Virus record (IMG/VR): IMGVR_UViG_2737471862_000008 | Span: 1-24,872 of that record | Direction: 5' to 3' (one strand) | Length of the DNA stretch: 24,872 nt | Source of the DNA: a virus | Taxonomy: Duplodnaviria > Heunggongvirae > Uroviricota > Caudoviricetes | Shown here: positions 3,519 to 24,872 of the stretch, piece by piece | Layout of the letters: each line of letters opens with the position of its first letter | Position numbering within the stretch: position 1 is the first letter of the stretch | Made by a program: the position numbers and the translations under genes | Notes under the pieces: generated by a model | Databases searched by the model: none | Seen by the model: the letters and a program-made list of their open reading frames with translations, nothing else | What the model was told of the DNA's origin: nothing

Positions 3519-5387
3519 GTGATTTTCAAATTGTATGAAGGGTCTTACAATCCAATGAATTACAATGAAGAGCTAACCTCATATCTTAATTATTTAGTGG
3601 ATCTTGAAAAACCCCCTAATTTCGCAGTAATGATTGACGGCGAATGGGGAAGCGGGAAAACATGGTTTGTCCGTAAATTAATGAATGAAGAATCACTAAA
3701 AAGGGAAGTTAAGCCATTAATGATCTCATTATATGGAATAAAATCCACCGAACAAATTGACGAAATAATTTTCAAGCAAATGCATCCCTTCCTTTCATCT
3801 AAAGGCATGTTGCTTGCTGGCACACTAACTAAGGCACTAATTAAAGGCACACTTAAGATTGATTTAAGTGATTCATTCGTTACAAGTGTAGAGGGCTCCC
3901 CAGAACTACCCAACGTAAGCATTAAAGACTTTTACTACTCACCAGAAAACACCATATTGATATTTGATGATCTTGAACGCTGCGAATTAGATTGGAATTC
4001 TATATTTGGTTATATAAATAATTTCGTTGAAGAAAAAGAATGCAAGGTTTTGATTATCGCCAATGAGAGAGAAATATTAAACCCCGCTAGAAATAAAAAT
4101 CATGATGATATTTATTTAGATGCAAAAGAAAAAGTTATAGGTATAACTTTCAAATATCAACCTCAACATTCTCACGCCTACGAATATTTTCTAAAAAATA
4201 TAACTAGCGAACTCAACACCATTCTGAACATAAAAAATATTGAGAGCTTACTCACTCTTTCAGAGTGTAATAACATTAGATTAATTGAAAGGCAAATTTC
4301 TTTTTTTGAAAGAATATTCAAAATATTACCAGCACAGTTTCAGCAAAATTCAGATTTGACACTCAGATTATATCAATTACATTTTATACTCTATTTTGAA
4401 TCTAATAAAATAAAACGAACCGTTTCTGACTTGTTAACATATAAAATAGATGATGATAATAAATACACATCCAATTTAATTGAAAAATATGGTACAACTT
4501 ATTTGTCAAATTTAATCTTAGACGAGGATACCTGGATCGATATAATTGACAATCAGAAAATCAATCAAGAAAAAATAATATCTGAATTAATAACATTTGT
4601 CAGTGTTTCTAATAAAACAATTGAACCATGGACACAACTTTGGAATTATGATCGATTAAAATACACAGAATTTGAGGAAAATTACAATTCAACACTTCAT
4701 ACGCTTATTAATTTTGAAATATTGAACGAGCATGTTCTTAAGCATATTTACGGATTATTACTTCATTTATCCAGAGAACATATAAAACCCATCAACGAAC
4801 ACTATTTAACAAACTTAGCCCACTCTGCTGTTGATATTTTAGCAGAAAAAGGAATGATACAAACTAGTTATGAAATTTTTGATGAAGACATTAAGGATGA
4901 GCGATGGGGAGGATTAACTTTTCATTGCAAAGAAACTAGGGAATTCAAGGAGCTTGTTAATTACATAGAACAAAAGAAAAATGTATTAATTGCATATCAA
5001 CTTAGCCAAGATGCTCAAAAGATATTCAAATTAATACAGTCCGGAAATCATGAATATTACGCACATCTAAATTTCAACAACAAAGATATTTATTCATTTC
5101 ACGACAAACCAGTTCTTTATTTTGGTGATGCTGAACAACTAACAAAAATGCTGATAGACTCAACCGAAATGCATTTCTTTGGCTATGCTATAAAAAACCG
5201 ATACAACAACACCCATTATCTAAAAGAGCTTTCTGCAGAGCGTTTTTTCCACCGCGAGCTAATTAGAAAGCTAATTGAAAAGAAAACTCAAATAAACTCA
5301 AATATATTATCATTACAAATCGATGAGCTCATAAATGATTGTTTAACTCCCGCAATAGATAAATTAAAGCAAAGCATTGAAAATTAA
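3519..5387 (+). CDS. KAP-family-like P-loop NTPase; AT-rich cargo gene inserted between S and V
   Basis: 622-aa ORF (start may instead be the ATG at 3555). Walker A reads GEWGSGKT, matching the KAP signature GxWGxGK[ST]; Walker B reads ILIFDDLERC, matching hhhhDDLDRC. Base composition is conspicuously AT-rich compared with the flanking tail genes. P2 has no gene at this position. Confidence 0.7.
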   Translation: MIFKLYEGSYNPMNYNEELTSYLNYLVDLEKPPNFAVMIDGEWGSGKTWFVRKLMNEESLKREVKPLMISLYGIKSTEQIDEIIFKQMHPFLSSKGMLLAGTLTKALIKGTLKIDLSDSFVTSVEGSPELPNVSIKDFYYSPENTILIFDDLERCELDWNSIFGYINNFVEEKECKVLIIANEREILNPARNKNHDDIYLDAKEKVIGITFKYQPQHSHAYEYFLKNITSELNTILNIKNIESLLTLSECNNIRLIERQISFFERIFKILPAQFQQNSDLTLRLYQLHFILYFESNKIKRTVSDLLTYKIDDDNKYTSNLIEKYGTTYLSNLILDEDTWIDIIDNQKINQEKIISELITFVSVSNKTIEPWTQLWNYDRLKYTEFEENYNSTLHTLINFEILNEHVLKHIYGLLLHLSREHIKPINEHYLTNLAHSAVDILAEKGMIQTSYEIFDEDIKDERWGGLTFHCKETREFKELVNYIEQKKNVLIAYQLSQDAQKIFKLIQSGNHEYYAHLNFNNKDIYSFHDKPVLYFGDAEQLTKMLIDSTEMHFFGYAIKNRYNNTHYLKELSAERFFHRELIRKLIEKKTQINSNILSLQIDELINDCLTPAIDKLKQSIEN

Positions 5388-11374: not shown

Positions 11375-13141
11375 ATGAACACCACACTGACACCCACAGA
11401 TCTCGATCCCCGTCGGCAGGCCATGCTGCTGTACTTTCAGGGATACCGCGTCGCCCGCATTGCTGAAATGCTGGGCGAGAAAGTTGCAACCGTTCACAGC
11501 TGGAAAAAACGCGACAAGTGGGGTGACTATGGGCCGCTGGATCAGATGCAGCTCACCACCGCCGCACGCTACTGCCAGCTCATTATGAAGGAGCACAAAG
11601 AAGGGAAAGATTTCAAAGAAATTGACCTGCTGGCACGCCAGTCTGAGCGCCACGCGCGGATCGGCAAGTTTAACAATGGCGGCAATGAAGCCGACTTAAA
11701 CCCTAACGTTGCCAACCGCAACAAAGGCCCACGTCGTCAGCCGGAAAAGAATGTTTTCACCGATGAACAGATTGAGAAACTGGAAGAAATCTTCCATTCC
11801 TCCATGTTCAACTACCAGCGCCACTGGTGGGAAGCCGGAAAAACCAACCGCATCCGCAACCTGCTGAAGTCACGCCAGATCGGCGCGACCTTTTACTTTG
11901 CCCGTGAAGCCCTGATTGACGCCCTGCTGACCGGACGTAACCAGATTTTCCTTTCCGCCAGCAAGGCACAGGCCCACGTCTTTAAGCAGTACATCATCGA
12001 CTTCGCCAAAGAAGTGGAAGTGGAGCTGAAAGGCGATCCGATGGTGCTTCCCAACGGGGCCACGCTTTACTTCCTCGGCACCAATGCCCGCACGGCCCAG
12101 AGTTACCACGGCAACCTGTATCTGGATGAATATTTCTGGATACCGAAATTCCAGGAGCTGCGCAAAGTGGCTTCCGGTATGGCTATTCACAAAAAATGGC
12201 GACAAACCTATTTTTCCACGCCATCCAGCCTGACACACAGTGCTTATCCGTTCTGGTCCGGTGCGCTGTTTAACCGTGGGCGCAACAAAGCCGATAAGGT
12301 GGACATCGACCTGTCCCACAACAATCTGGCCCCCGGCTTGCTGTGCGCAGACGGGCAATACCGCCAGATAGTCACCGTGGAAGATGCGGTGCGCGGCGGC
12401 TGTAACCTGTTCGACCTCGACCAGCTACGCATGGAGTACAGCCCGGACGAATATCAGAACCTGCTGATGTGCGAGTTCGTGGACGATCTCGCGTCCGTGT
12501 TCCCGCTCAGCGAACTGCAGGCGTGCATGGTGGACAGTTGGGAAGTCTGGACCGACTTTCATGCACTGGCCCTGCGCCCGTTTGGCTGGCGCGAGGTGTG
12601 GATCGGTTATGACCCGGCAAAAGGTACGCAGAACGGCGACAGCGCCGGATGCGTGGTGGTGGCACCGCCAGCCGTGCCAGGCGGTAAGTTTCGCATTCTT
12701 GAGCGCCACCAGTGGCGCGGGATGGACTTCCGCGCCCAGGCTGATGCAATCAAAAAACTGACCGAGCAGTACAACGTGACCTATATCGGCATCGACTCGA
12801 CAGGCGTCGGTCACGGGGTTTATGAGAACGTGAAAGCGTTCTTTCCTGCCGTCCGGGAGTTTGTCTACAACCCCAACGTTAAAAACGCTCTGGTACTCAA
12901 GGCCTACGACATTATCAGCCACCGCCGTCTGGAGTTTGACGCCGGACACACCGACATAGCGCAGTCATTTATGGCAATCCGTCGCGCCACCACCGCCAGT
13001 GGCAACCGCCCGACCTATGAAGCCAGCCGCAGCGAAGAAGCCAGCCACGCCGATCTGGCCTGGGCAACGATGCACGCACTGTTTAACGAACCGCTGCAGG
13101 GCGAATCCGCCAATACCAGCAATATTGTGGAGATTTTTTGA
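11375..13141 (+). CDS. P: Terminase large (ATPase) subunit P
   Basis: 588 aa (P2 gpP is about 590 aa). Divergent from O; stop overlaps the Q start. Confidence 0.92.
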   Translation: MNTTLTPTDLDPRRQAMLLYFQGYRVARIAEMLGEKVATVHSWKKRDKWGDYGPLDQMQLTTAARYCQLIMKEHKEGKDFKEIDLLARQSERHARIGKFNNGGNEADLNPNVANRNKGPRRQPEKNVFTDEQIEKLEEIFHSSMFNYQRHWWEAGKTNRIRNLLKSRQIGATFYFAREALIDALLTGRNQIFLSASKAQAHVFKQYIIDFAKEVEVELKGDPMVLPNGATLYFLGTNARTAQSYHGNLYLDEYFWIPKFQELRKVASGMAIHKKWRQTYFSTPSSLTHSAYPFWSGALFNRGRNKADKVDIDLSHNNLAPGLLCADGQYRQIVTVEDAVRGGCNLFDLDQLRMEYSPDEYQNLLMCEFVDDLASVFPLSELQACMVDSWEVWTDFHALALRPFGWREVWIGYDPAKGTQNGDSAGCVVVAPPAVPGGKFRILERHQWRGMDFRAQADAIKKLTEQYNVTYIGIDSTGVGHGVYENVKAFFPAVREFVYNPNVKNALVLKAYDIISHRRLEFDAGHTDIAQSFMAIRRATTASGNRPTYEASRSEEASHADLAWATMHALFNEPLQGESANTSNIVEIF

Positions 13142-14178
13142 TGGGAAAGAGTAAGAAAAACCGCGCTGCGGCGACGAACCAGATTCAGCATAAAAGCCAG
13201 ACTTCAGCCGAAGCATTCAGCTTTGGCGATCCCGTTCCTGTTCTGGACCGCCGAGAATTACTGGACTATGTGGAATGCGTACAGATGGACCGTTGGTATG
13301 AGCCGCCCGTCAGCTTTGACGGACTGGCGCGCACCTTCCGCGCTGCCGTGCATCACAGTTCCCCGATTGCAGTAAAGTGCAACATTCTGACCAGTACCTA
13401 TATCCCTCATCCTCTGCTCAGCCAGCAAGCTTTTTCACGTTTTGTGCAGGACTATCTGGTATTTGGTAACGCCTACCTGGAGAAACGCACGAACCGCTTC
13501 GGTGAAGTTATCGCCCTTGAGCCTGCACTGGCAAAATACATCCGACGCGGGTTAGACCTGGATACCTACTGGTTTGTGCAATACAGTATGACAACCCAGC
13601 CGTATCAGTTCACGAAAGGCAGCATTTTTCATCTGATGGAACCGGACATTAACCAGGAGATCTACGGCCTGCCCGGTTATCTTTCTGCCATTCCGTCAGC
13701 TCTGCTCAACGAGTCCGCCACGCTGTTCCGCCGCAAGTATTACATTAACGGCAGTCATGCAGGCTTCATCATGTACATGACCGATGCCGCGCAGAACCAG
13801 GAAGATGTGAACAACCTCCGCAATGCGATGAAAAGCGCCAAAGGTCCGGGTAACTTCCGCAATCTGTTTATGTACTCGCCTAATGGTAAAAAAGACGGAC
13901 TTCAGATTATCCCATTGTCAGAAGTCGCAGCGAAGGATGAATTTCTGAACATCAAGAACGTCAGCCGTGATGACATGATGGCAGCGCATCGTGTGCCACC
14001 ACAAATGATGGGAATAATGCCTAGCAATGTTGGGGGGTTTGGGGATGTGGAGAAGGCTAGTCTTGTATTTGTTCGCAATGAATTGATGCCACTACAGAAG
14101 CGACTACATGAACTAAACGAATGGGTGGGTGCAGAAGTAATACGTTTTGATGACTATGTTTTAGGTGTTCAGGAATAA
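13141..14178 (+). CDS. Q: Portal (capsid vertex) protein Q
   Basis: Track ORF starts at a TTG at 13138; the ATG at 13141 follows GGAG and overlaps the P stop (TGATG). About 345 aa, as P2 gpQ. Confidence 0.9.
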   Translation: MGKSKKNRAAATNQIQHKSQTSAEAFSFGDPVPVLDRRELLDYVECVQMDRWYEPPVSFDGLARTFRAAVHHSSPIAVKCNILTSTYIPHPLLSQQAFSRFVQDYLVFGNAYLEKRTNRFGEVIALEPALAKYIRRGLDLDTYWFVQYSMTTQPYQFTKGSIFHLMEPDINQEIYGLPGYLSAIPSALLNESATLFRRKYYINGSHAGFIMYMTDAAQNQEDVNNLRNAMKSAKGPGNFRNLFMYSPNGKKDGLQIIPLSEVAAKDEFLNIKNVSRDDMMAAHRVPPQMMGIMPSNVGGFGDVEKASLVFVRNELMPLQKRLHELNEWVGAEVIRFDDYVLGVQE

Positions 14179-14224: not shown

Positions 14225-14563
14225 TTAACAAACAGCGTATAAACCATCAAATCCAACGGAATGAACCTTTTTTGATGCTACTTCATTGCTACGGCGTTGG
14301 ATCACTTTTGCAATACTTTTTAAAATTGAAGGGGATGCATTGCGAACCTTAACCTGACTCAAAACTTTGGTTACACCGAATTTCACTACCAAAACACCAA
14401 AGATTTCATCAGAGTATGATTCTGAAATTGAATAAACACCGCTCAGGTCTAAATCTACGGTATACCCTTCTTTAATGAACCCTTCAATCTTGTGTCGTTG
14501 GGGGATAGCCTGATTGCGCGAAGCCAGGTCACCCTCGGGTAACTTGTATGCGATTTTGTTCAT
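14225..14563 (-). CDS. Small STAS-like (anti-sigma-antagonist-like) protein; second gene of a two-gene cargo operon
   Basis: 112 aa. Start overlaps the upstream gene's stop (TAATG) and follows GGAGGAG. The motif VDLDLSGVYSISESYSDEIFGVLVV resembles the STAS/DUF4325-type hLDhsGV..hssSFaDEhfG core. Recalled similarity, not computed. Confidence 0.5.
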   Translation of the reverse strand: MNKIAYKLPEGDLASRNQAIPQRHKIEGFIKEGYTVDLDLSGVYSISESYSDEIFGVLVVKFGVTKVLSQVKVRNASPSILKSIAKVIQRRSNEVASKKVHSVGFDGLYAVC

Positions 14564-15537
14564 TACTCTCCTCCTAACGCCCGCATTATTTCCATAAGCT
14601 GAGGGTCATTTTCTTCGCTATCTTTATCGACTGCCAGTTCATGAATCTTAAAACGGCAAGAAATTGCTACACCCGGCCATTCAGTACGTAATTCAGTATA
14701 GCTCACTTCATCACCTATTGCTTCTAAGCATACATTTCCTGAAGCCAGTTGCAATTCCCCATTATATGTTTTTATCAATTTCATCAAGTGATATAACCCA
14801 AGCCCTTGATGATTATTATCTTTTTCTTTGACCGAAACCCCGTGACCAAACACACTACCCCCAATAAAATCCTGGGGAAGTTGCTGTGCCCAATCATCCT
14901 GCAAATCAGCATGCTTAGATGAATGTCCCTCTTGAATACACCATGCGATCGCATCCTGGTGAGTCTCAATTCCGGGTATACCAGCTCGCCGCAATTCTCG
15001 GAGAAATCCTAACCCACAGTCCGCCAAAGAAAATTCTAAATAGTGCTCTTTTCTTTGTGTGTGGGGTACAGCCGAACGTTGTGCAAAAGAAAAACCCGTT
15101 GATTTTCCATGCGACCAAACGTTATCGTGAAGCTCACCTATAACATGTGTTAGATCTGTAAGTCCCTTGGGATAATCTCTCGGATCACGATCAGGGAATG
15201 TTAACTGCCTTACACAACTGTTAATACTACCAGTGGCAACGTCAACAGCTTCAACATTGGTTAATGCTGTAACCAAACTGTAATTTCTCCCAACATTTAC
15301 ACGTTCCTGTTGATACTGATCCTCGCCCCATAAAGCACCATGTAAATTGATAGCCCGCATATAGTCAGGGCATGACAAAACGCAGTTATCTTCGGTAATT
15401 TTGTGATGATTCACGTAAGCTGCTAAGACAGTGATAAAACCAGGATGCCAATGGTTGTTTGGCAATTGCAATTCATTAGTTTCCTTTTGATGAAACGCAG
15501 CGGTATGCACAATAGCGTCTTTTAATCCTAACCCCAT
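14563..15537 (-). CDS. GHKL-type (histidine-kinase/anti-sigma-kinase-like) ATPase with an N-terminal domain of unknown function
   Basis: 324 aa. Bergerat-fold motifs are visible: N-box GELHDNVWSHG, G1 box LADCGLGF, G2 box HQGLGLYHL. The first ~130 aa have no recognisable motif. Lower GC than the phage backbone. Confidence 0.6.
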   Translation of the reverse strand: MGLGLKDAIVHTAAFHQKETNELQLPNNHWHPGFITVLAAYVNHHKITEDNCVLSCPDYMRAINLHGALWGEDQYQQERVNVGRNYSLVTALTNVEAVDVATGSINSCVRQLTFPDRDPRDYPKGLTDLTHVIGELHDNVWSHGKSTGFSFAQRSAVPHTQRKEHYLEFSLADCGLGFLRELRRAGIPGIETHQDAIAWCIQEGHSSKHADLQDDWAQQLPQDFIGGSVFGHGVSVKEKDNNHQGLGLYHLMKLIKTYNGELQLASGNVCLEAIGDEVSYTELRTEWPGVAISCRFKIHELAVDKDSEENDPQLMEIMRALGGE

Positions 15538-15566
15538 GAACCGAACCTTTTTTATGCATTTTTCTT

Positions 15567-15595
15567 ATCATATAACTTAGGACTGATCAGCGCAA
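15567..15595 (-). promoter_or_regulatory. Candidate sigma70 promoter of the GHKL/STAS operon
   Basis: On the minus strand: TTGCGC, 17 nt, TATGAT, about 30 nt upstream of the ATG at 15537. Prediction by eye only. Confidence 0.3.
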
Positions 15596-15649
15596 AGATC
15601 CCGACACTCTTGAATCATACTAAATTAAGGCCTATACCACACAGCGCGC

Positions 15650-15672
15650 GCTCGTATCCCCGCCACGCCTGC
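15650..15672. other. cos-like sequence (candidate cohesive-end site of the phage genome)
   Basis: The minus-strand reading of 15658..15669 is GGCGTGGCGGGG. That equals the first 12 nt of the 19-nt cohesive end I recall for phage 186 (GGCGTGGCGGGGAAAGCAT); P2 has GGCGAGGCGGGG. The match decays after 12 nt. It sits in a GC-rich island between two AT-rich cargo modules. Confidence 0.4.
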
Positions 15673-15711
15673 CCGCTTTATGTAGCGGTTTTCATGCGCC
15701 TGCATGACATA

Positions 15712-15738
15712 AGCAAAATCCCGCCACTCCTGGCGGGC
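15712..15738 (-). terminator. Putative rho-independent terminator of the membrane-protein cassette
   Basis: Hairpin CCCGCCA-CTCC-TGGCGGG, followed on the minus strand by ATTTTGCTT, about 90 nt downstream of the 15830 stop. Confidence 0.4.
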
Positions 15739-15829
15739 CTCAGCTAAAACGATCCTCAAACGATCATGCGGATTCATGCGGCATAGACATGCACAATCTC
15801 CAAAGCGGGCATCGAGACTTTTTGGAAAC

Positions 15830-16441
15830 CTACGTAACCACAGTTAATGTGTGCATCCTGTCTCGAATTGCATCACACGTCTCATCAAAAAGCTTGGTGA
15901 TGGTTGTATGGTTCAACTCCGCCTCTTTCCAATAATTTTGCCCGTCAAATTCTGGATCGCTATGCTTAAACGATATTGACTCTGAAAGGCATTCCTTCCG
16001 GAAACGGTCCAAGATTATATAAACCTCTGGTGAGATGAACGGTTTGTTAGATTCAACACTTGTAACAAAAGTGTTAAATGCATCAGAAAAAACTTTCAAC
16101 CTTCTAAATTTTCTCTCTTCAAATGGTTCGTTGGGGTCAACATGATCCAGCGCAGGCCTCAGCTTAAGCACGCTTTCTCTGGTTTCAAACATCGAATTCC
16201 AAATGAGACTATATGCTGATAACTCCTTATCAAAATACGCTTTCGTTACATAAACAGAATTGTCTAACTTAGCCTTTATTCTTTCATTAGTTGCACTCAG
16301 TTGTGATTGAAATTCAGCAATATCTTTGTTTAGCCGCGACTTATATCTTTCTAAATAAACTTTCCCGATCCAAACAAATATGCCAGATGCAACAAAAGAC
16401 ACCCCACCCAACGAAGCCAGAACTTTAAAGACTAAATCCAT
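15830..16441 (-). CDS. Membrane-anchored protein of unknown function (single N-terminal TM helix plus ~175-aa soluble domain); single-gene cargo cassette
   Basis: 203 aa. N-terminal hydrophobic helix VLASLGGVSFVASGIFVWIG, then a charged coiled-coil-like region. RBS GGTGGGGG precedes the ATG. AT-rich. Lies where P2-family phages carry variable genes (tin/old position). Confidence 0.55.
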   Translation of the reverse strand: MDLVFKVLASLGGVSFVASGIFVWIGKVYLERYKSRLNKDIAEFQSQLSATNERIKAKLDNSVYVTKAYFDKELSAYSLIWNSMFETRESVLKLRPALDHVDPNEPFEERKFRRLKVFSDAFNTFVTSVESNKPFISPEVYIILDRFRKECLSESISFKHSDPEFDGQNYWKEAELNHTTITKLFDETCDAIRDRMHTLTVVT

Positions 16442-17409: not shown

Positions 17410-19824
17410 TTAATACAGGTTCCGCCACTTATCATCTTCCTGCAAACGCTGGTTCCGATAGAAGACACGCAGGCCTGCTCCTGACGGAATACTGCCGCCG
17501 CGAAGGAGTAAATCGACCTCTTTCTCGCTGCCATCAAATCCTCTGGACTTCAGTTCATAGACGAGCTGCTGTCGTTGATGGTCTGTAATTCGCTGTTTGT
17601 AGTCTCTACGCCGTTTCGGTTTCACCAGGCGTAACCTTGCAGCCAGTTCCCGGCGCTCTTTTTTGTTCATACTGTGCAGGTAATCGTGCAACTCCTTGTC
17701 ATCCATGTGGGTAATGTCCGTTCTGGTATCCCCATCAGCTGATTTGTCTTTCCCTTGTTGGTTCAAATTTTCAGCAAGGGGACAGTTATTGCCACGAGTC
17801 CAAGGGGCGCAAGCGCCCTGGTCGGCTGCCGCCTCCTGAACGTCAACGGCCTTACGAACCATTTTCCACTTCACGGCATGAGTGCAGATCTTGCCCTCTG
17901 CAATAGGTGACCAGATGCCATAAATACGAATGCCGTGATCGCCATAGGCGGTCGGCTCTTCGTTGATTTCATAAGCAGTTCTGATGAGGTGATATTTGCG
18001 GGGAACCAGTACGCCACCCTGCTTCATGATGTAGGTGGCAAAACAACCAGCATCAGCAGCAGCCAGAATGGCATCAAGGCGCGGGTTATCCAGTACCGGC
18101 GCACCTGCTTTTTTGTCCCCCTGTTGCCTTGCCGCCTGACCAGCCAGCAATCGCAGTTCACGGTAAGCCTGACGCCCCGGAATGCCAAAGAAGCGGAATT
18201 GCTGAACACGATGCAGAGACGCCCAGGCATTAACGTATTCAGCATTATCACGCAGGGATTTCCCCGTTTCCTTGCTGATCTCGCCAGCCAGACCACGCCC
18301 GTCAATGTTCTTACTGATGTATTTCGCGATGTAGCTTGTTGGCGTACCTTTGCGCGGGTTAATCAACTCAGACTTAAAGCGCGGCCCAGTGTTATTGCCC
18401 AGCTCCTCGCGGTCTTCACGGATGGCAAACTTACGCAGTAATGCAGTGATGGTGCGGCGGTCTTTTTTGCGCATAAAACACAACAGGTGCCAGTGAACTG
18501 TACCGTCATGATGCGGCTCAGCCACCCGCACGCCATACCACCGCAATCCGGCTTTGTGCATCGCCTTACGAAATGCAGCAAACATGCCGACCAGATAATC
18601 ACTGCTTTGTCTTACCGTCGCATTTGTCCAGGTTGGGTTGGGCCTGCCGTTATTTAGCGTGGAATGGAAACGTGACGGACAGGTGATGGTGTAGAAAACG
18701 GCGCAGTCACCGCGCATTTCCGCGATAAGCTCCAGACCTTTAACACAGGCCATCATCTCATTGCGGCGATGCGCTGGGTTGCTGCTGCTGGCGTTTACCA
18801 CATCCTCCATGTCCAGCGTGTCGCCGTCTTCGTTCACCAGTTCATGAGAACGGAAAAACTCCAGCGACTTACGGCGCTGCTCACGTTTATGCATCACGGC
18901 TTCATAGCTGACATAAGGAGATGCTTTTTTGCTGACAAGGCAGACTGCACGCAACTGCTCTTCCCGCCATTCGCAACGCATCTTCCATAATTTCCGATAC
19001 CACCAGTCGGCGCACAACATACGCGCCAGCGAACCCGGAATGAGTTCATAGGGCACGGGTTTACGGCGGTTTCTTTTCCGACGGAGTTGCTCAAACGCAG
19101 GCGGGATGACATCCAGACGCAGGGTTTCCGCTGCCACCCTTTCCCATGTATTGCGGATTTCTTCTGGCTTAACGTCATCGGTGGCATACAAATCGCCACA
19201 AGCGGCATCAAGGCACATACTCATATGCGCAGCTACCAGGGTGGACAGGCGTTTCACCTGATCCTGACTCATTTCAGGCAGGATCAGCAGGCCGTCCAGC
19301 CCTTCATGGCTTGCCATAAAGCGAAAAGATGCAGATAGCTGACTGTCGCGTACATGCTCCAGTCGTTCCAGACATGGCTTAATCGTCTCACGTAAATAGC
19401 GGGAATAAGCCTTTGGCCTGCCCAGGCTGCTGAAGTATTCAATACGTTGCATCAGCGGCTTGCTGATATGGGAAGGCTGGGCGTTGACGTCCGCCAGAAT
19501 GACCATATCCGGATTAAAACGCTGCTGCTCATGCGCCAGCTTTGCCCGACTAATGAGCTTATCCTGTTCCATTTCGCGCTGGACAGGATCACGGGATTCA
19601 TTAAAGAAATAACGCTCCCAGACCTGATCACTCAGCGCCTCACGGCGCAGCTGTTCCTGCTCGTTATCGGCAGCGTACAGAGTGATCAGGTTTGAAAGCG
19701 TAGAAACCGGCGCAACTTCCACCGGGTCCAGATAAGGGTTAATGGCCTTTTTCGGGCTGTTCCATGAGAACGATGCGGCAGCTTCGTTAAAGCCGCAGCA
19801 GTTGTTCATATCGGCATGACTCAT
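17410..19824 (-). CDS. A: Replication initiation protein A (rolling-circle nicking endonuclease)
   Basis: 804-aa ORF in the P2/186 position of gene A. Start ATG overlaps the Dam stop (ATGA). Confidence 0.88.
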
Positions 19825-21965: not shown

Positions 21966-22481
21966 TCACAGCAAACCGAATGAAGCACCGAGTCCGGTCA
22001 CGGTATCAACTGCACTCGCCATCGCAGGGTTAGCCTGTAAACGGGCCTGCAATGAAACAGCAGCCAACGCCATCAGTCGTGTTACAGAGTTAATGCTGCT
22101 GATAGCATCACGACGACCTGCACTGGTTTTTACATCGCCAGATACCGCACCTGCAGCAACACGCCCGATCTCTGCGGTTGCACTCATGACGTAATGTGGC
22201 AGTTTCTCTTTTGCCACCTCATTAATCGGTACACATGGCAGACAATGAATCTGTGCCAGAAAACCATCTACCAGCGTTGAATCTTCAGTCAGATCGGTAA
22301 GCAGCCAGATTTCTGGTGCGGTTAATAGATGAGGCTGAGCTGGGTTCAGCTTGTTCCGCAGAATCTGCACATTCATGCCTGCACGTTCTGCCAGTTGCAC
22401 CAGATTGTGGCGCAGTGCAAATGCACGACAGGCTTCATCAAAATGTGGATGTTTGGAAACTTGGTAATCAAACATGGTCAA
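21966..22481 (-). CDS. cII: CII-like transcriptional regulator (186-type)
   Basis: 171 aa (186 CII is 169 aa), second gene of the leftward early operon after the apl-like gene. HTH-like region [27 protein letters not shown]. Assigned mainly by position and size. Confidence 0.55.
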
Positions 22482-22507: not shown

Positions 22508-22729
22508 CTAATTAAGGTTTAGATTGCATTCTGAAAGCGCATCAACGGTCATGGCTGCTATGTTGATCATCACTTTTTCGCGTTTTTTATCTTTGCGCAA
22601 ACGGTGACGGATAAGGCGTCCGTCAGCCAACATGTCATTGATGGTATCGATGGACAGCCCTGTCAGCTCGCTATAGCGCTCAATAGTCACATGAGGCGTG
22701 GTAAGAGTGATTGAAATGTTAGGTCTCAT
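22508..22729 (-). CDS. apl: Apl/Cox-like excisionase / lytic-operon regulator
   Basis: 73-aa HTH protein ([25 protein letters not shown]), first gene of the early operon, divergent from the repressor. Confidence 0.5.
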
Positions 22730-22854
22730 GATGCAACATTCCTCGTTTAATGATGATTAATCAGGACGAATACGGATCGTTTGTATTTTGTGAACACCAT
22801 AAACATACGATCGCACAATGAAATCGTCAAGATAAAAGTTCACTTGGAGTGACC
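22730..22854. promoter_or_regulatory. Lysis-lysogeny switch region (early and repressor promoters and operators)
   Basis: 125-bp AT-rich gap between the divergently arranged apl-like and cI genes. Contains repeated GATCG/ATCG motifs at about 22775, 22809 and 22823. Promoters not resolved. Confidence 0.4.
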
Positions 22855-23424
22855 ATGAATTTGGAGAAAGGCGGACGAGGCGCTATAGAGCGCATGGTAG
22901 AAGCTTATGGATTCAAAACTCGACAGGCGTTGTGCGATCATTTAGGAATCTCTAAAAGTACACTCGCCACACGCTACATGCGTGACTCATTCCCAGCAGA
23001 ATGGGTAATCCAGTGCGCCCTTGAAACGGGCACCTCGCTTAATTGGCTCACAACCGGACATGGTTCAAAGCAAACTTCAGGTAATACAAATACTATGGAA
23101 GTTGCTAAATATGTATTATCTGATGGTGCCTTGCGTGAAGACGGTTTTTATATTTTTGATAAGGGATTTTTACCCTCTACGTTTAAAAAACCTTTTGTCA
23201 TCACAGATAACAATTCTGAATTTATTTGTGATAAAGAATTTGATGATATACGTGATGGTAAATGGGTAATAAGTATTGATGGCGAAGTAACGATCCGTGA
23301 CATTACTCGTTTACCCGGTGGAAGAATCTTCGTCGAGGGTGGAAACAGAGCCTTCGAATGTAAGATAGAAGACATTGAAATAATTGGTAAAATTATAAGT
23401 TTAACAGTCAAGTATGTTAAATAG
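22855..23424 (+). CDS. cI: Immunity repressor CI (186-type, ~190 aa)
   Basis: Track start GTG at 22849; the ATG at 22855 follows GGAG. N-terminal HTH (TRQALCDHLGISKSTLATRYMRD) plus a C-terminal domain. Its size matches 186 CI (192 aa), not P2 C (99 aa). Confidence 0.7.
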   Translation: MNLEKGGRGAIERMVEAYGFKTRQALCDHLGISKSTLATRYMRDSFPAEWVIQCALETGTSLNWLTTGHGSKQTSGNTNTMEVAKYVLSDGALREDGFYIFDKGFLPSTFKKPFVITDNNSEFICDKEFDDIRDGKWVISIDGEVTIRDITRLPGGRIFVEGGNRAFECKIEDIEIIGKIISLTVKYVK

Positions 23425-23439
23425 TACCGGGAGGAAACT

Positions 23440-23631
23440 ATGCTTGGTAAGGTATTTTTTGTGGTTTTGTCATGTTCTTTGTTATTAAACCCACTAACTA
23501 CCTATGCTAGAAATTATCCCTGCTCAGGGAAAAAGGGAGGTGTTTCTCACTGTACCTCAGATGGCAAATTCGTTTGCAATGATGGAACTATTAGTAAATC
23601 CAAAAAAATCTGTACTAAAAACTCACGATAA
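23440..23631 (+). CDS. Small secreted cysteine-rich basic peptide (signal peptide plus ~40-aa mature peptide); cargo gene between cI and int
   Basis: 63 aa. RBS GGGAGGAAACT precedes the ATG. N-terminal signal peptide [23 protein letters not shown]; mature part carries 4 Cys and many Lys. AT-rich. P2 and 186 have no gene at this position. Confidence 0.5.
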
Positions 23632-23819
23632 CTTTTGCTTTTATATCTGCGTCTAAAATAAAAATGAGCCGCAGGTTAACCGCAAAAGTTACATGCTCAC
23701 ATAGCAAAAAGAATAGCCAACTTCATTATGGCTTCAGTGAGATGTATGGTCGTAGGATTTCATACATTGACACTGGTTATACATACAGTAAAAATGCTCT
23801 CTACTGGAGGGCATTTTTT

Positions 23820-24872
23820 ATGGCAGTACGAAAACTCACCACAGGGAAATGGCTTTGCGAATGTTACCCCGCCGGACGAAGTGGGCGTCGTGTGCGTAAA
23901 CAATTCGCCACCAAAGGCGAAGCTCTGGCTTTTGAGCGTCACACTATGGAAGAAACCGAATCAAAGCCATGGCTGGGCGAATCAGTGGATCGTCGAACCC
24001 TGAAAGACGTGGTTGAGCTATGGTTCAAACTACATGGTAAATCTCTGACTGCTGGGCAGCATGTCTATGACAAATTGCTGCTGATGGTTGACGCTCTGGG
24101 CAATCCTCTTGCAACCGATCTCACCTCTAAAATGTTTGCCCACTATCGAGATAAACGCCTGACAGGCGAGATCTACTTCAGCGAGAAATGGAAGAAAGGA
24201 GCAAGCCCGGTCACCATTAACCTGGAGCAAAGCTATCTAAGTAGTGTTTTTAGCGAACTATCCCGTCTGGGCGAATGGTCGTATCCGAACCCACTGGAGA
24301 ACATGCGAAAATTCACCATCGCAGAAAAAGAGATGGCATGGCTTACCCATGAGCAGATTGTTGAATTACTGGCTGATTGCAAACGTCAGGACCCAATTCT
24401 AGCACTGGTAGTTAAGATATGCTTAAGCACAGGCGCACGCTGGCGAGAAGCCGTAAATCTTACTCGTTCACAGGTGACCAAATACCGAATTACCTTTGTA
24501 AGAACGAAGGGGAAGAAAAACAGAAGTATCCCTATCAGTAAAGAGCTTTACGAAGAGATCATGGCGCTTGATGGGTTCAATTTCTTCACAGACTGCTATT
24601 TTCAATTTTTATCCGTGATGGAAAAAACGTCTATCGTGCTCCCTCGCGGTCAACTCACACACGTTCTGCGCCATACGTTTGCGGCGCACTTCATGATGTC
24701 GGGTGGAAACATTCTGGCCTTACAAAAAATTCTCGGACACCACGATATAAAAATGACTATGCGTTACGCACATCTGGCACCAGATCATCTGGAAACGGCG
24801 CTCCGTTTCAATCCTCTGGCAACGCTGCCAAGTGGCGACAAAGTGGCGGCAGCGGTTGGCATTACCCCGTAA
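23820..24872 (+). CDS. int: Tyrosine integrase (P2/186 Int family)
   Basis: Track ORF trimmed to MAVRKLTTGKW... (RBS GGAGGG), 350 aa. Motifs ...LSTGARWREA..., HVLRHTFA and MRYAHLAP carry the catalytic Arg, His and Tyr. The stop codon is the last 3 nt of the window. Confidence 0.92.
   Translation: MAVRKLTTGKWLCECYPAGRSGRRVRKQFATKGEALAFERHTMEETESKPWLGESVDRRTLKDVVELWFKLHGKSLTAGQHVYDKLLLMVDALGNPLATDLTSKMFAHYRDKRLTGEIYFSEKWKKGASPVTINLEQSYLSSVFSELSRLGEWSYPNPLENMRKFTIAEKEMAWLTHEQIVELLADCKRQDPILALVVKICLSTGARWREAVNLTRSQVTKYRITFVRTKGKKNRSIPISKELYEEIMALDGFNFFTDCYFQFLSVMEKTSIVLPRGQLTHVLRHTFAAHFMMSGGNILALQKILGHHDIKMTMRYAHLAPDHLETALRFNPLATLPSGDKVAAAVGITP

What the first reader, a model, noticed from the sequence alone, without database searches (positions are those of the whole stretch)
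23440..23631. Small secreted cysteine-rich peptide gene between cI and int (candidate lysogenic-conversion moron)
In P2 and 186 the integrase gene directly follows the repressor gene. Here a 63-aa AT-rich ORF with a strong RBS sits between them and would be co-transcribed with cI in the lysogen. It encodes a predicted signal peptide and a ~40-aa lysine-rich mature peptide with 4 cysteines. Genes expressed from the repressor transcript are typical lysogenic-conversion or exclusion factors.
Basis: partly seen in the sequence, partly recalled or inferred. Interest (0 to 1): 0.5.

Follow-up and report, generated by a model that had tools for sequence, protein, structure and literature searches.

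The report
Prophage YdcA-family exported miniprotein gene
A real, very strongly conserved 63-codon gene sits behind the repressor gene of a 186-like E. coli prophage. It encodes an exported, cysteine-rich, basic 40-residue protein of the already catalogued but uncharacterised YdcA family, which recurs as cargo in temperate phages.

Summary
The ORF at 23440-23631 is real. It matches NCBIfam NF007463 above its curated cutoff and phrog_6000, its homologues carry Pfam PF27300 (YdcA), and RefSeq already labels it "YdcA family protein". About 590 of 5426 complete E. coli genomes carry this module.

Diverged copies occupy the same position directly after cI in 186-like prophages of Escherichia, Klebsiella, Enterobacter and Yersinia. 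Haemophilus phage HP2 has an unannotated copy there too. The linked cI proteins are only 26-98% identical. The 32-residue core is nearly invariant, although its synonymous sites are saturated.

The precursor has a variable signal peptide ending in a near-invariant Ala. The mature peptide has 40 residues, four Cys and a net charge of +7.

Two leads are new here:
- The domain resembles the two lobes of Legionella Dis2, a disulfide-rich outer-membrane-cap protein of the Dot/Icm secretion system.
- The domain is fused to three unrelated families of secreted nucleases.

The cI-int slot elsewhere holds defence genes (PD-Lambda-1, PDC-S20 KAP NTPase) and, in Vibrio phage K139, the periplasmic exclusion protein Glo.

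It is a new member of a known, uncharacterised family.

The parts
22855..23424 (+). cI repressor gene (189 aa by the PGAP start; a GTG at 22849 is also open), first cistron of the lysogenic operon
   Evidence: Pfam Phage_CI_repr 2.8e-33 and Phage_CI_C 5.4e-29; RefSeq annotation of an identical locus
23430..23434 (+). Shine-Dalgarno GGAGG, 5 nt before the ORF's ATG
   Evidence: read from the sequence
23440..23631 (+). YdcA-family gene, 63 codons plus stop
   Evidence: NF007463 115.8 bits (cutoff 93); phrog_6000 1.9e-34; PF27300 on homologues; RefSeq 'YdcA family protein'; near-zero nonsynonymous change with saturated synonymous change
23440..23508 (+). predicted Sec signal peptide (residues 1-23, cleavage after T-Y-A)
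   Evidence: n/h/c layout; best 10-residue hydropathy 2.73; Ala23 near-invariant across the family while the rest of the N-terminus varies; it aligns with the AFA|AD end of the Dis2 signal peptide, and the cryo-EM model of Dis2 starts at residue 39-40
23509..23628 (+). mature 40-residue basic peptide [40 protein letters not shown] with four family-conserved Cys (28, 38, 46, 58)
   Evidence: alignments A1-A3; pI 9.7, net +7; AlphaFold pLDDT 84-92 over residues 31-60
23629..23691 (+). long imperfect hairpin that starts at the stop codon; role unknown (possibly a 3' stabiliser). On the minus strand its inner part scores as a terminator-like site
   Evidence: RNA fold of 23625-23825: -62.4 kcal/mol, z = -5.7; minus-strand terminator-like site 23685-23669; no covariation seen in three alleles
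23767..23795 (+). promoter-like site TTGACA-17-AAAAAT in the conserved int leader
   Evidence: consensus scan, 10 of 12; homology to relatives that carry other cargo resumes at about 23742-23762
23790..23819 (+). 13-bp hairpin AAAAATGCTCTCT/ACT/GGAGGGCATTTTT plus T, immediately before the int ATG. It is terminator-like and buries the int Shine-Dalgarno (23806-23810)
   Evidence: folds; equivalent hairpins with compensatory changes in relatives
23820..24872 (+). tyrosine integrase (350 aa)
   Evidence: Int_N and Phage_integrase; phrog_1 match starts at residue 51 of the long frame; PGAP start

Best explanation
The ORF is a genuine cargo gene of the YdcA family, carried as the second cistron of the prophage's lysogenic operon (pL/pE -> cI -> ydcA-like).

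**Proposed sequence of events.**
1. In the lysogen it is transcribed with cI and translated from its own GGAGG.
2. The precursor is exported by Sec and cut after Ala23.
3. The four conserved Cys are oxidised to two disulfides.
4. The result is a 4.3-kDa, strongly basic, non-enzymatic miniprotein that stays in the periplasm, near the inner face of the outer membrane.
5. There it acts purely by binding.

**Most likely role.** It protects the lysogen, and with it the prophage, at the envelope. It would do so by binding an anionic polymer (incoming DNA is the leading candidate) or a conserved envelope component, so hindering entry of superinfecting phage or other foreign DNA.

**Shown here:** the gene is real, belongs to the family, holds a conserved position after cI, is under strong purifying selection, and has the features of an exported precursor.

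**Inferred:** co-transcription, export, cleavage and disulfides.

**Hypothesis only:** the ligand and the exclusion role.

**My probabilities:**

| Step | Probability |
|---|---|
| Real exported YdcA-family protein | about 0.9 |
| Expressed from the lysogenic transcript | about 0.75 |
| Exclusion or defence role | about 0.35-0.4 |
| DNA as the ligand | about 0.25 |
For: **Family membership.** NF007463 scores above its cutoff, phrog_6000 matches, and homologues carry PF27300.

**Position.** The gene sits directly after cI in E. coli (about 590 of 5426 complete genomes), Klebsiella, Enterobacter, Yersinia and Haemophilus HP2. The linked cI proteins are only 26-98% identical to each other.

**Coupling to neighbours.** The gap after cI is 15 nt here. 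HP2 has a TAATG overlap with cI, and in Enterobacter the stop is 2 nt from the int ATG. In 186 and K139 the cI-int genes form the annotated lysogenic operon.

**Selection.** In the 32-codon core there are 8-21 synonymous against 0-2.5 nonsynonymous differences between prophage copies.

**Export.** 97% of 180 family members have a hydrophobic N-terminal segment, 172 of 180 have exactly 4 Cys in the domain, and the median net charge is +5.

**Link to Dis2.**
- The best PDB sequence match is Legionella Dis2: E = 1.9e-4 with the full profile and 1.4e-3 with the domain alone.
- It is also the best Foldseek match (probability 0.89-0.94).
- hhalign gives 85% probability.
- A Dis2 homologue carries PF27300.
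- Dis2 is a disulfide-pinned protein positioned near the outer membrane (PMC8486379).

**Link to DNA.** The domain is fused, after a signal peptide, to SNase, Endonuclease_NS and PLD-type nuclease domains. It also occurs in tandem arrays with Lys/Ser-rich linkers.

**Defence context.**
- The same slot holds PD-Lambda-1 and PDC-S20 KAP NTPase in relatives.
- In K139 the slot holds Glo, a soluble periplasmic exclusion protein.
- Rousset et al. describe the cI-int hotspot in K139-like phages (PMC9122126).
- In A. baumannii prophages the gene lies in a tail-region cargo spot next to SocA/HicAB-type genes.
Against: - There is no expression, localisation or phenotype data for this gene, and a search for its accession numbers found no paper.
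- It matches no PADLOC model.
- The only phenotype reported for the family is that chromosomal E. coli ydcA deletion increases sensitivity to 3-hydroxypropionate. ydcA expression is also said to rise at acid pH (PMC7642389). That points to stress tolerance rather than exclusion.
- Loss of Dis2 has only subtle effects, and Dis2 does not touch the DNA or effector channel (PMC12716638).
- Fusion to nucleases could equally mean anchoring or localisation rather than DNA binding.
- Phage DNA is normally shielded while it crosses the periplasm.
- No own promoter was found, and a terminator-like hairpin lies only downstream of the gene. Transcription is therefore inferred from layout alone.
Confidence: 0.45

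Rival explanations
1. Host-benefit lysogenic conversion. The exported miniprotein strengthens or modifies the envelope and so raises tolerance to acid, organic acids or other envelope stress. It would duplicate or boost the job of the chromosomal ydcA, and the prophage gains indirectly through a fitter host.
For: - Deleting chromosomal ydcA makes E. coli W sensitive to 300 mM 3-hydroxypropionate, and ydcA is reported as induced at pH 5 under YdcI (PMC7642389).
- The prophage copy is a paralogue of that gene. It matches NF007462 at 68.5 bits, and the chromosomal copy sits between cybB and hokB.
- The mature peptide is nearly invariant across hosts, as expected if the target is a conserved host envelope component.
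Against: - Lysogens already carry the chromosomal copy.
- The slot and the neighbouring cargo are defence-type genes.
- The family is spread over phages and small mobilisable plasmids, which suggests a benefit to the mobile element.
- The 3-HP phenotype was completely overridden by yieP deletion, and its mechanism is unknown.
Confidence: 0.25
2. Dis2-like adaptor. The miniprotein docks onto outer-membrane lipoproteins or an envelope-spanning machine (a secretion system, a pilus, or Pal/OmpA-type proteins) and tunes that machine, rather than binding nucleic acid.
For: Dis2 is the closest solved relative. It contacts DotK, DotC and the DotD N-terminal tail near the outer membrane (PMC12716638).
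Against: - The window and the related prophages encode no T4SS.
- Dis2 has two lobes and five disulfides, whereas this protein has one domain and four Cys.
- The Dis2 deletion phenotype is subtle.
- This reading does not explain the repeated fusion to nucleases.
Confidence: 0.12
3. Secreted signal or weapon. The product would be a phage communication peptide (arbitrium-like) or a cationic bacteriocin-like peptide released to act on other cells.
For: It is small, has a signal peptide, is cationic and disulfide-rich, and is encoded in the lysis-lysogeny control region.
Against: - The mature peptide is nearly identical in phages whose repressors are only about 30-40% identical. That is the opposite of the diversification expected of a phage-specific signal.
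- No receptor, immunity or outer-membrane export gene is adjacent.
- Chromosomal copies, tandem-repeat forms and nuclease fusions do not fit either idea.
Confidence: 0.03
4. Chance open frame in AT-rich DNA or in a long integrase leader; not a gene.
For: The region is AT-rich, and the int reading frame is open upstream to 23664.
Against: - It scores above the cutoff of a curated family model.
- The family has 454 cluster representatives at E <= 0.001.
- Synonymous sites are saturated while the protein core is almost unchanged.
- It has a good Shine-Dalgarno sequence.
Confidence: 0.01

Closest known systems
E. coli K-12 YdcA and the YdcA family (Pfam PF27300; NCBIfam NF007462/NF007463/NF007464, PRK10040; phrog_6000)
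   Same: - Same architecture: a signal peptide, then a domain of about 35 residues with the PCSGxKGG...C...FVCNDG...S.SKK.C motifs and four Cys.
- The ORF scores above the NF007463 cutoff.
- RefSeq already uses the family name for this exact protein.
   Different: - It is the NF007463 paralogue, not the chromosomal cybB-ydcA-hokB gene. It scores 68.5 bits on NF007462 against a cutoff of 118.
- It is carried by a prophage in the lysogenic operon.
- The family has no demonstrated function.
Glo of Vibrio cholerae phage K139 (soluble periplasmic superinfection-exclusion protein)
   Same: - It is encoded between cI and int in the lysogenic operon of a P2-related phage.
- It has a signal peptide and is a small soluble periplasmic product.
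- The phage record and the literature tie it to exclusion.
   Different: - There is no sequence relationship (hhalign probability 0.2%).
- Glo has 137 aa and only two Cys.
- Exclusion has been shown for Glo only.
[quoted passage not shown]
   Same: - It is the best sequence and Foldseek match in the PDB.
- It shares the motif C-S-K-x-G-G-I-x-x-C...G-(K/R)-(F/L)-V-C-N-(D/N)-G-x-x-S.
- It has a signal peptide, is held by disulfides, and lies near the outer membrane.
   Different: - Dis2 has two tandem lobes and five disulfides and is a stoichiometric part of a T4SS outer-membrane cap.
- This protein is a single domain in a phage with no T4SS.
- The published papers call Dis2 Legionella-specific and without structural relatives.
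Defence cargo of the cI-int hotspot in P2-related prophages (PD-Lambda-1, PDC-S20 KAP NTPase; hotspot described for K139-like Vibrio phages)
   Same: - It occupies the same insertion slot between the cI stop and a conserved int leader of about 75 nt.
- In some prophages the YdcA-like gene is followed directly by the KAP NTPase.
   Different: - Those are large cytoplasmic or membrane NTPases that PADLOC recognises.
- The YdcA-like gene is a 63-codon exported peptide with no PADLOC match.

Membership tests
YdcA family (NCBIfam NF007463 / Pfam PF27300) | Whole-protein HMM score at or above the curated cutoff | tested here: met
   NF007463 scores 115.8 bits against a cutoff of 93, covering residues 5-63 and profile positions 1-58 of 58. 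PF27300 is not in the local Pfam copy but is precomputed on 57 of the 64 homologues listed, including P0001, which is 98% identical.
YdcA family (NCBIfam NF007463 / Pfam PF27300) | N-terminal signal peptide followed by a single domain of about 35 residues with four conserved Cys (C-x9-C-x7-C-x11-C) and the PCSGxKGG and FVCNDG motifs | tested here: met
   Alignments A1-A3 show P27, C28, S29, G33, G34, C38, F44, C46, G49, S52, S54 and C58 invariant in A2/A3, with A23 nearly invariant.
PHROG phrog_6000 (phage protein family, unknown function) | HMM match over the full profile | tested here: met
   E = 1.9e-34, residues 3-59 against profile positions 1-56 of 56.
Moron (extra gene in a temperate phage, in the sense of Hendrix and colleagues; definition from my own knowledge) | Present in some phages and absent from close relatives at the same position | tested here: met
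   186 has cI abutting int. 813R9 and 4LV2017 carry other genes in the slot. No enterobacterial phage record in the phage collection holds a copy.
Moron (extra gene in a temperate phage, in the sense of Hendrix and colleagues; definition from my own knowledge) | Own promoter and terminator, so that it forms an autonomous transcription unit | tested here: not met
   The gap after cI is only 15 nt and no plus-strand promoter-like site lies before the ORF. It depends on the cI promoters. Hairpins follow it, but none between 23632 and 23789 has a U-tract.
Moron (extra gene in a temperate phage, in the sense of Hendrix and colleagues; definition from my own knowledge) | Base composition different from the flanking phage genes | tested here: inconclusive
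   The ORF is 35% GC against 50% for the window, but the low-GC block also covers the C-terminal half of cI and the spacer (23051-23819).
Moron (extra gene in a temperate phage, in the sense of Hendrix and colleagues; definition from my own knowledge) | Expressed from the repressed prophage | not testable with these tools
   Inferred only from its place in the operon.
Periplasmic superinfection-exclusion proteins of the K139 Glo type | Homology to Glo | tested here: not met
   hhalign probability 0.2%.
Periplasmic superinfection-exclusion proteins of the K139 Glo type | Encoded between cI and int in the lysogenic operon and carrying a signal peptide | tested here: met
Periplasmic superinfection-exclusion proteins of the K139 Glo type | Reduces infection by the same or other phages | not testable with these tools
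   Needs plating and DNA-entry assays.
Dis2-type T4SS outer-membrane-cap subunit | Sequence and fold similarity to a Dis2 lobe | tested here: inconclusive
   [not shown]
Dis2-type T4SS outer-membrane-cap subunit | Two tandem lobes with five disulfides, and association with a Dot/Icm system | tested here: not met
   This protein is a single domain with four Cys. There are no T4SS genes in the window or in the related prophages.
Known anti-phage defence proteins (PADLOC-DB 2.0) | Match to any defence-system model | tested here: not met
   No hit for the ORF. The neighbours of relatives in the same slot hit PDC-S20 (2.4e-171) and PD-Lambda-1 (3.1e-120).
Bacterial lipoprotein | Lipobox [LVI][ASTVI][GAS]C at the end of a signal peptide of about 15-25 residues | tested here: not met
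   C12 is preceded by V-L-S after only 11 residues. Homologues have F, I or V at position -1 or no Cys at all. The conserved cleavage context is x-x-A before (K/R)NYPC.

The most novel reading that the evidence does not exclude
YdcA-domain miniproteins would be a widespread class of periplasmic nucleic-acid-binding (or DNA-entry-blocking) modules carried by mobile elements. Temperate phages of several lineages and small plasmids would express them to stop foreign DNA (superinfecting phage, transforming or conjugating DNA) at the periplasmic stage. The same disulfide-knotted fold would have been recruited twice more: as the DNA-holding domain of secreted nucleases, and, duplicated, as Dis2 of the Legionella Dot/Icm machine.
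Probability: 0.2. Interest if true: 0.7.

Novelty: new member of a known kind. Interest (0 to 1): 0.42.

Why it matters
- **Prevalence.** The gene is in about one in nine complete E. coli genomes, and relatives are in thousands of A. baumannii assemblies. It sits in a place where it should be made continuously in lysogens.
- **Conservation.** Its mature product is conserved far more tightly than the repressor next to it. Nobody knows what it does.
- **Testability.** It is a 40-residue peptide and therefore easy to test. It can be synthesised, or expressed from a plasmid and challenged with phages, DNA uptake and envelope stress.
- **Possible payoff.** A positive result would add a second, unrelated example of a soluble periplasmic protection factor in the cI-int slot of P2-related phages, after K139 Glo. 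It would also give a first function to the YdcA family, including the E. coli K-12 y-gene.
- **Dis2.** The probable homology gives the "Legionella-specific" Dis2 subunit a large family of relatives.

Tried and rejected
- **Local Pfam copy.** No significant hit. The family model PF27300 is newer than the copy and was seen only as precomputed annotation.
- **RNA families.** Rfam on the whole window found nothing.
- **PADLOC.** No hit for the ORF.
- **Literature.**
  - The protein accession numbers appear in no paper.
  - Most "ydcA" papers concern an unrelated B. subtilis rhomboid or plasmid and gonococcal-island genes that share only the name.
  - The UniRef label "Conjugal transfer protein" for this protein has no support that I could find.
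  - The K139 paper by Nesper et al. 1999 could not be opened, so Glo's properties are taken from the phage record and from a paper that cites it.
- **Ideas rejected.**
  - Homology to Glo.
  - Lipoprotein.
  - Arbitrium-like signal or bacteriocin: the peptide is invariant across immunity types and has no partner genes.
  - Obligate pairing with the KAP NTPase: most copies stand alone.
  - Linkage to one cI clade: cI genes without the ORF are interleaved with cI genes that have it.
- **Weak matches treated as composition.** The profile's matches to LDL-receptor class A repeats (E about 0.01) are taken as cysteine-pattern noise.
- **Hairpin at the stop codon.** Three alleles vary too little to test for covariation.
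Full report
**What is there**

The window is a 186-like (Peduoviridae) prophage. About 79% of its first 22 kb is roughly 96% identical to Escherichia phage vB_EcoM-813R9 and to several Klebsiella phages. Identical copies lie next to rcdA/ybjJ in E. coli chromosomes.

The right end reads as follows:

| Feature | Coordinates | Strand |
|---|---|---|
| CII | 21966-22481 | - |
| Apl/Cox | 22508-22729 | - |
| CI | 22855-23424 | + |
| The ORF | 23440-23631 | + |
| Spacer | 23632-23819 (188 nt) | |
| Int | 23820-24872 | + |

The ORF has an ATG, a GGAGG 5 nt upstream, and starts 15 nt after the cI stop. Its GC content is 35% against 50% for the window. The low-GC block also covers the C-terminal half of cI and the spacer, 23051-23819.

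In 186, cI and int abut and form the annotated lysogenic operon. In P2, C and int are separated by 115 nt with no gene between them.

**It is a real gene of a catalogued family**

The product scores 115.8 bits on NCBIfam NF007463 (cutoff 93) and 1.9e-34 on phrog_6000. Most of its homologues carry Pfam PF27300, named YdcA. RefSeq calls this exact protein "YdcA family protein".

The exact sequence occurs on more than 1000 contigs. The module (ORF plus flanks) is present at 80% coverage or more in 590 of 5426 complete E. coli genomes, at 92-100% identity. A profile search of 1.84 billion cluster representatives finds 454 family members at E <= 0.001.

Between prophage copies, the 32-codon core from P27 to C58 shows 8-21 synonymous differences out of about 21 synonymous sites. 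It shows only 0-2.5 nonsynonymous differences out of about 75 sites. Chance and "leader frame" explanations are excluded.

**Anatomy of the product**

The alignments show three parts:
- a variable N-terminus with a basic start and a hydrophobic core;
- a near-invariant Ala (A23 here);
- a conserved domain, (K/R)[34 protein letters not shown], with four conserved Cys.

Among 180 single-domain members, 97% have a strongly hydrophobic N-terminal segment. 172 have exactly four Cys in the domain. The median net charge of the domain is +5.

The mature peptide predicted here has 40 residues, pI 9.7 and net charge +7. Cys12 lies in the signal peptide. It is not in a lipobox and is absent from most homologues. 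AlphaFold gives a confident small core, with pLDDT 84-92 for residues 31-60.

Export, cleavage after Ala23 and two disulfides are inferences. They are supported by the relative described in the Dis2 section below.

**Conserved position**

Diverged homologues sit directly after cI in other 186-like prophages:
- E. coli, sometimes with a KAP NTPase inserted between the gene and int;
- Klebsiella;
- Enterobacter, where the stop is 2 nt from the int ATG;
- Yersinia.

Haemophilus phages HP2 and S2 have an unannotated 60-codon homologue whose ATG overlaps the cI stop (TAATG). It is followed by another signal-peptide protein and then int.

The cI proteins linked to the gene are only 26-98% identical to each other. 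cI genes without it (813R9, 4LV2017) are interleaved among them. The YdcA core stays 77-100% identical throughout. The gene is therefore tied to the slot, not to one immunity type, and it evolves far more slowly than its neighbour.

**The slot is a cargo site**

Between the cI stop and a conserved int leader of about 75 nt, relatives carry other genes:
- a PD-Lambda-1 defence ATPase in 813R9;
- a PDC-S20 KAP NTPase;
- a 349-residue unknown protein in 4LV2017;
- in strain 17MR471, an ISApl1 that truncates the ORF.

Rousset et al. described a cI-int defence hotspot in K139-like Vibrio phages (PMC9122126). K139 itself has PL -> cI -> orf2 -> glo -> int. Glo is a soluble periplasmic protein involved in exclusion. 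Glo is an analogue only, because hhalign finds no relationship.

**The family on other mobile elements**

- In A. baumannii the family is very common and lies in prophages. It sits in a cargo spot between the tail-tube/YdaY genes and the tape-measure gene, next to SocA, HicAB and similar genes.
- It is also in Moraxella Mcat phages and one Pseudomonas phage.
- It occurs on Acinetobacter and Rhizobium plasmids, including a 3.9-kb MOBQ plasmid with only five genes.
- Chromosomal copies exist too: E. coli cybB-ydcA-hokB, and a housekeeping neighbourhood in metagenomic contigs of unidentified origin.

**Lead 1: Dis2**

The best solved relative is Dis2 (Lpg0823) of the Legionella Dot/Icm T4SS.

| Test | Result |
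|---|---|
| Family profile against PDB sequences | E = 1.9e-4 |
| Domain-only profile against PDB sequences | E = 1.4e-3 |
| Foldseek against PDB | top two hits, probability 0.89-0.94, 38% identity over 37 columns |
| hhalign | probability 85% |
| Precomputed Pfam on a close Dis2 homologue | PF27300 |

TM is only 0.4, so I call the homology probable, not proven.

Dis2 consists of two similar lobes pinned by five disulfides. It lies near the outer membrane and contacts DotK, DotC and DotD. Its model starts at residue 39-40, just after an AFA|AD site that aligns with TYA|RN here. The papers describe Dis2 as Legionella-specific and without structural relatives.

**Lead 2: nuclease fusions**

I scanned 20 of the longer family members. 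Five carry the YdcA domain between a signal peptide and a nuclease domain, and the nucleases come from three unrelated superfamilies:
- SNase (P0095);
- Endonuclease_NS (P0168, P0154, P0178);
- PLD-type (P0163).

No other bona fide domain recurred. Other long members are tandem arrays of the domain or carry Lys/Ser-rich tails. Together with the conserved positive charge, this suggests binding of an anionic polymer, with DNA the obvious candidate. Anchoring or localisation would explain the fusions equally well.

**How it most likely works**

The following steps are laid out in order.
1. The gene is transcribed from the cI promoters.
2. It is translated from its own Shine-Dalgarno sequence.
3. 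The precursor is exported by Sec and cut after Ala23.
4. DsbA oxidises the four Cys.
5. The miniprotein then acts by binding in the periplasm.

The role I consider most likely is protection of the lysogen against incoming phage or foreign DNA. My overall confidence is 0.45, and much lower for DNA as the specific ligand. The grounds are the slot, its neighbours, the K139 precedent, the spread on mobile elements and the nuclease fusions.

The main rival (0.25) is a host-benefit envelope or stress role. The only published phenotype for the family is that chromosomal ydcA deletion sensitises E. coli W to 3-hydroxypropionate, and ydcA is said to be acid-induced (PMC7642389). A Dis2-like adaptor role (0.12), a signal or bacteriocin (0.03) and a chance ORF (0.01) follow.

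**Downstream RNA features**

The spacer 23625-23825 folds far better than shuffled sequence (-62.4 kcal/mol, z = -5.7). One hairpin starts at the stop codon (23629-23691).

A second, 13-bp hairpin (23790-23818) is followed by a T and then the int ATG. It buries the int Shine-Dalgarno and looks like a terminator. Relatives with other cargo keep an equivalent hairpin through compensatory changes. A promoter-like site (23767-23795) would start transcripts inside the hairpin's 5' arm.

This suggests that the lysogenic transcript delivers cI and the YdcA-like peptide but little Int. That idea is untested.

**Verdict**

The gene is a new member of a known, uncharacterised family.

What is added here:
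- the conserved post-cI position across genera;
- the missing annotation in HP2;
- the extreme constraint on the mature peptide;
- the probable kinship with Dis2;
- the nuclease fusions.

Interest is moderate: the gene is common and easily testable, and its function is unknown.

Noticed in passing
window 23767-23819: The int leader is conserved. It holds a 13-bp hairpin (23790-23802 paired with 23806-23818) followed by a T and then the int ATG. The hairpin is terminator-like and buries the int Shine-Dalgarno. Relatives with different cargo keep an equivalent hairpin through compensatory changes (AGCCCTC/GAGGGCT against AGTCCTC/GAGGACT). A promoter-like TTGACA-17-AAAAAT would start transcripts inside the 5' arm. 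This may uncouple int from the cI transcript.
   Followed up: partly
window 23625-23825: The whole spacer between the ORF and int folds at -62.4 kcal/mol, z = -5.7 against shuffles. A long imperfect hairpin (23629-23691) begins at the ORF's stop codon, and its inner part scores as a terminator only on the minus strand. The three alleles aligned show no informative covariation.
   Followed up: partly
[not shown]
   Followed up: yes
PDB 7MUC/7MUD chain AN (Legionella Dis2, Lpg0823); P0336, P0337: Dis2 is described in the literature as Legionella-specific with no structural relatives. It appears to be a tandem duplication of the YdcA domain. A close homologue carries PF27300 in precomputed Pfam annotation.
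   Followed up: partly
proteins P0095, P0154, P0163, P0168, P0178: The YdcA domain is fused, after a signal peptide, to three unrelated nuclease superfamilies (SNase, Endonuclease_NS, PLD-like). Other members are tandem arrays of two or three YdcA domains.
   Followed up: partly
window 3519-5387 (+): A 622-residue KAP-family P-loop NTPase is encoded among the tail genes, on the opposite strand to most of its neighbours. It is probably cargo in the tail-region hotspot of P2-like phages.
   Followed up: no
window 14225-16441 (-): Three ORFs lie between the portal gene (13138-14178) and gpA (17410-19824), the classical P2 defence hotspot. They are a 112-residue DUF4325/STAS-like protein (weak DrmA-region hit in PADLOC), a 324-residue protein and a 203-residue protein, the last two with no family match.
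   Followed up: partly
window 23392-23420 (-): A strong promoter-like match on the minus strand (TTAACA-17-TATAAT, 11 of 12) points antisense into the end of cI. The DNA here is AT-rich, so it may be chance.
   Followed up: no
L009 2516-3659 (E. coli 17MR471): In one genome an ISApl1 transposase gene is inserted at the 3' end of the YdcA-like ORF and truncates it.
   Followed up: no
L031-L038 (A. baumannii prophages): In Acinetobacter prophages the YdcA-family gene is almost always followed by a DUF4236 gene and often by a YedD-like lipoprotein gene. It is preceded by variable SocA, HicAB or HATPase+DUF4325 cargo. All of this lies between the tail-tube and tape-measure genes.
   Followed up: no
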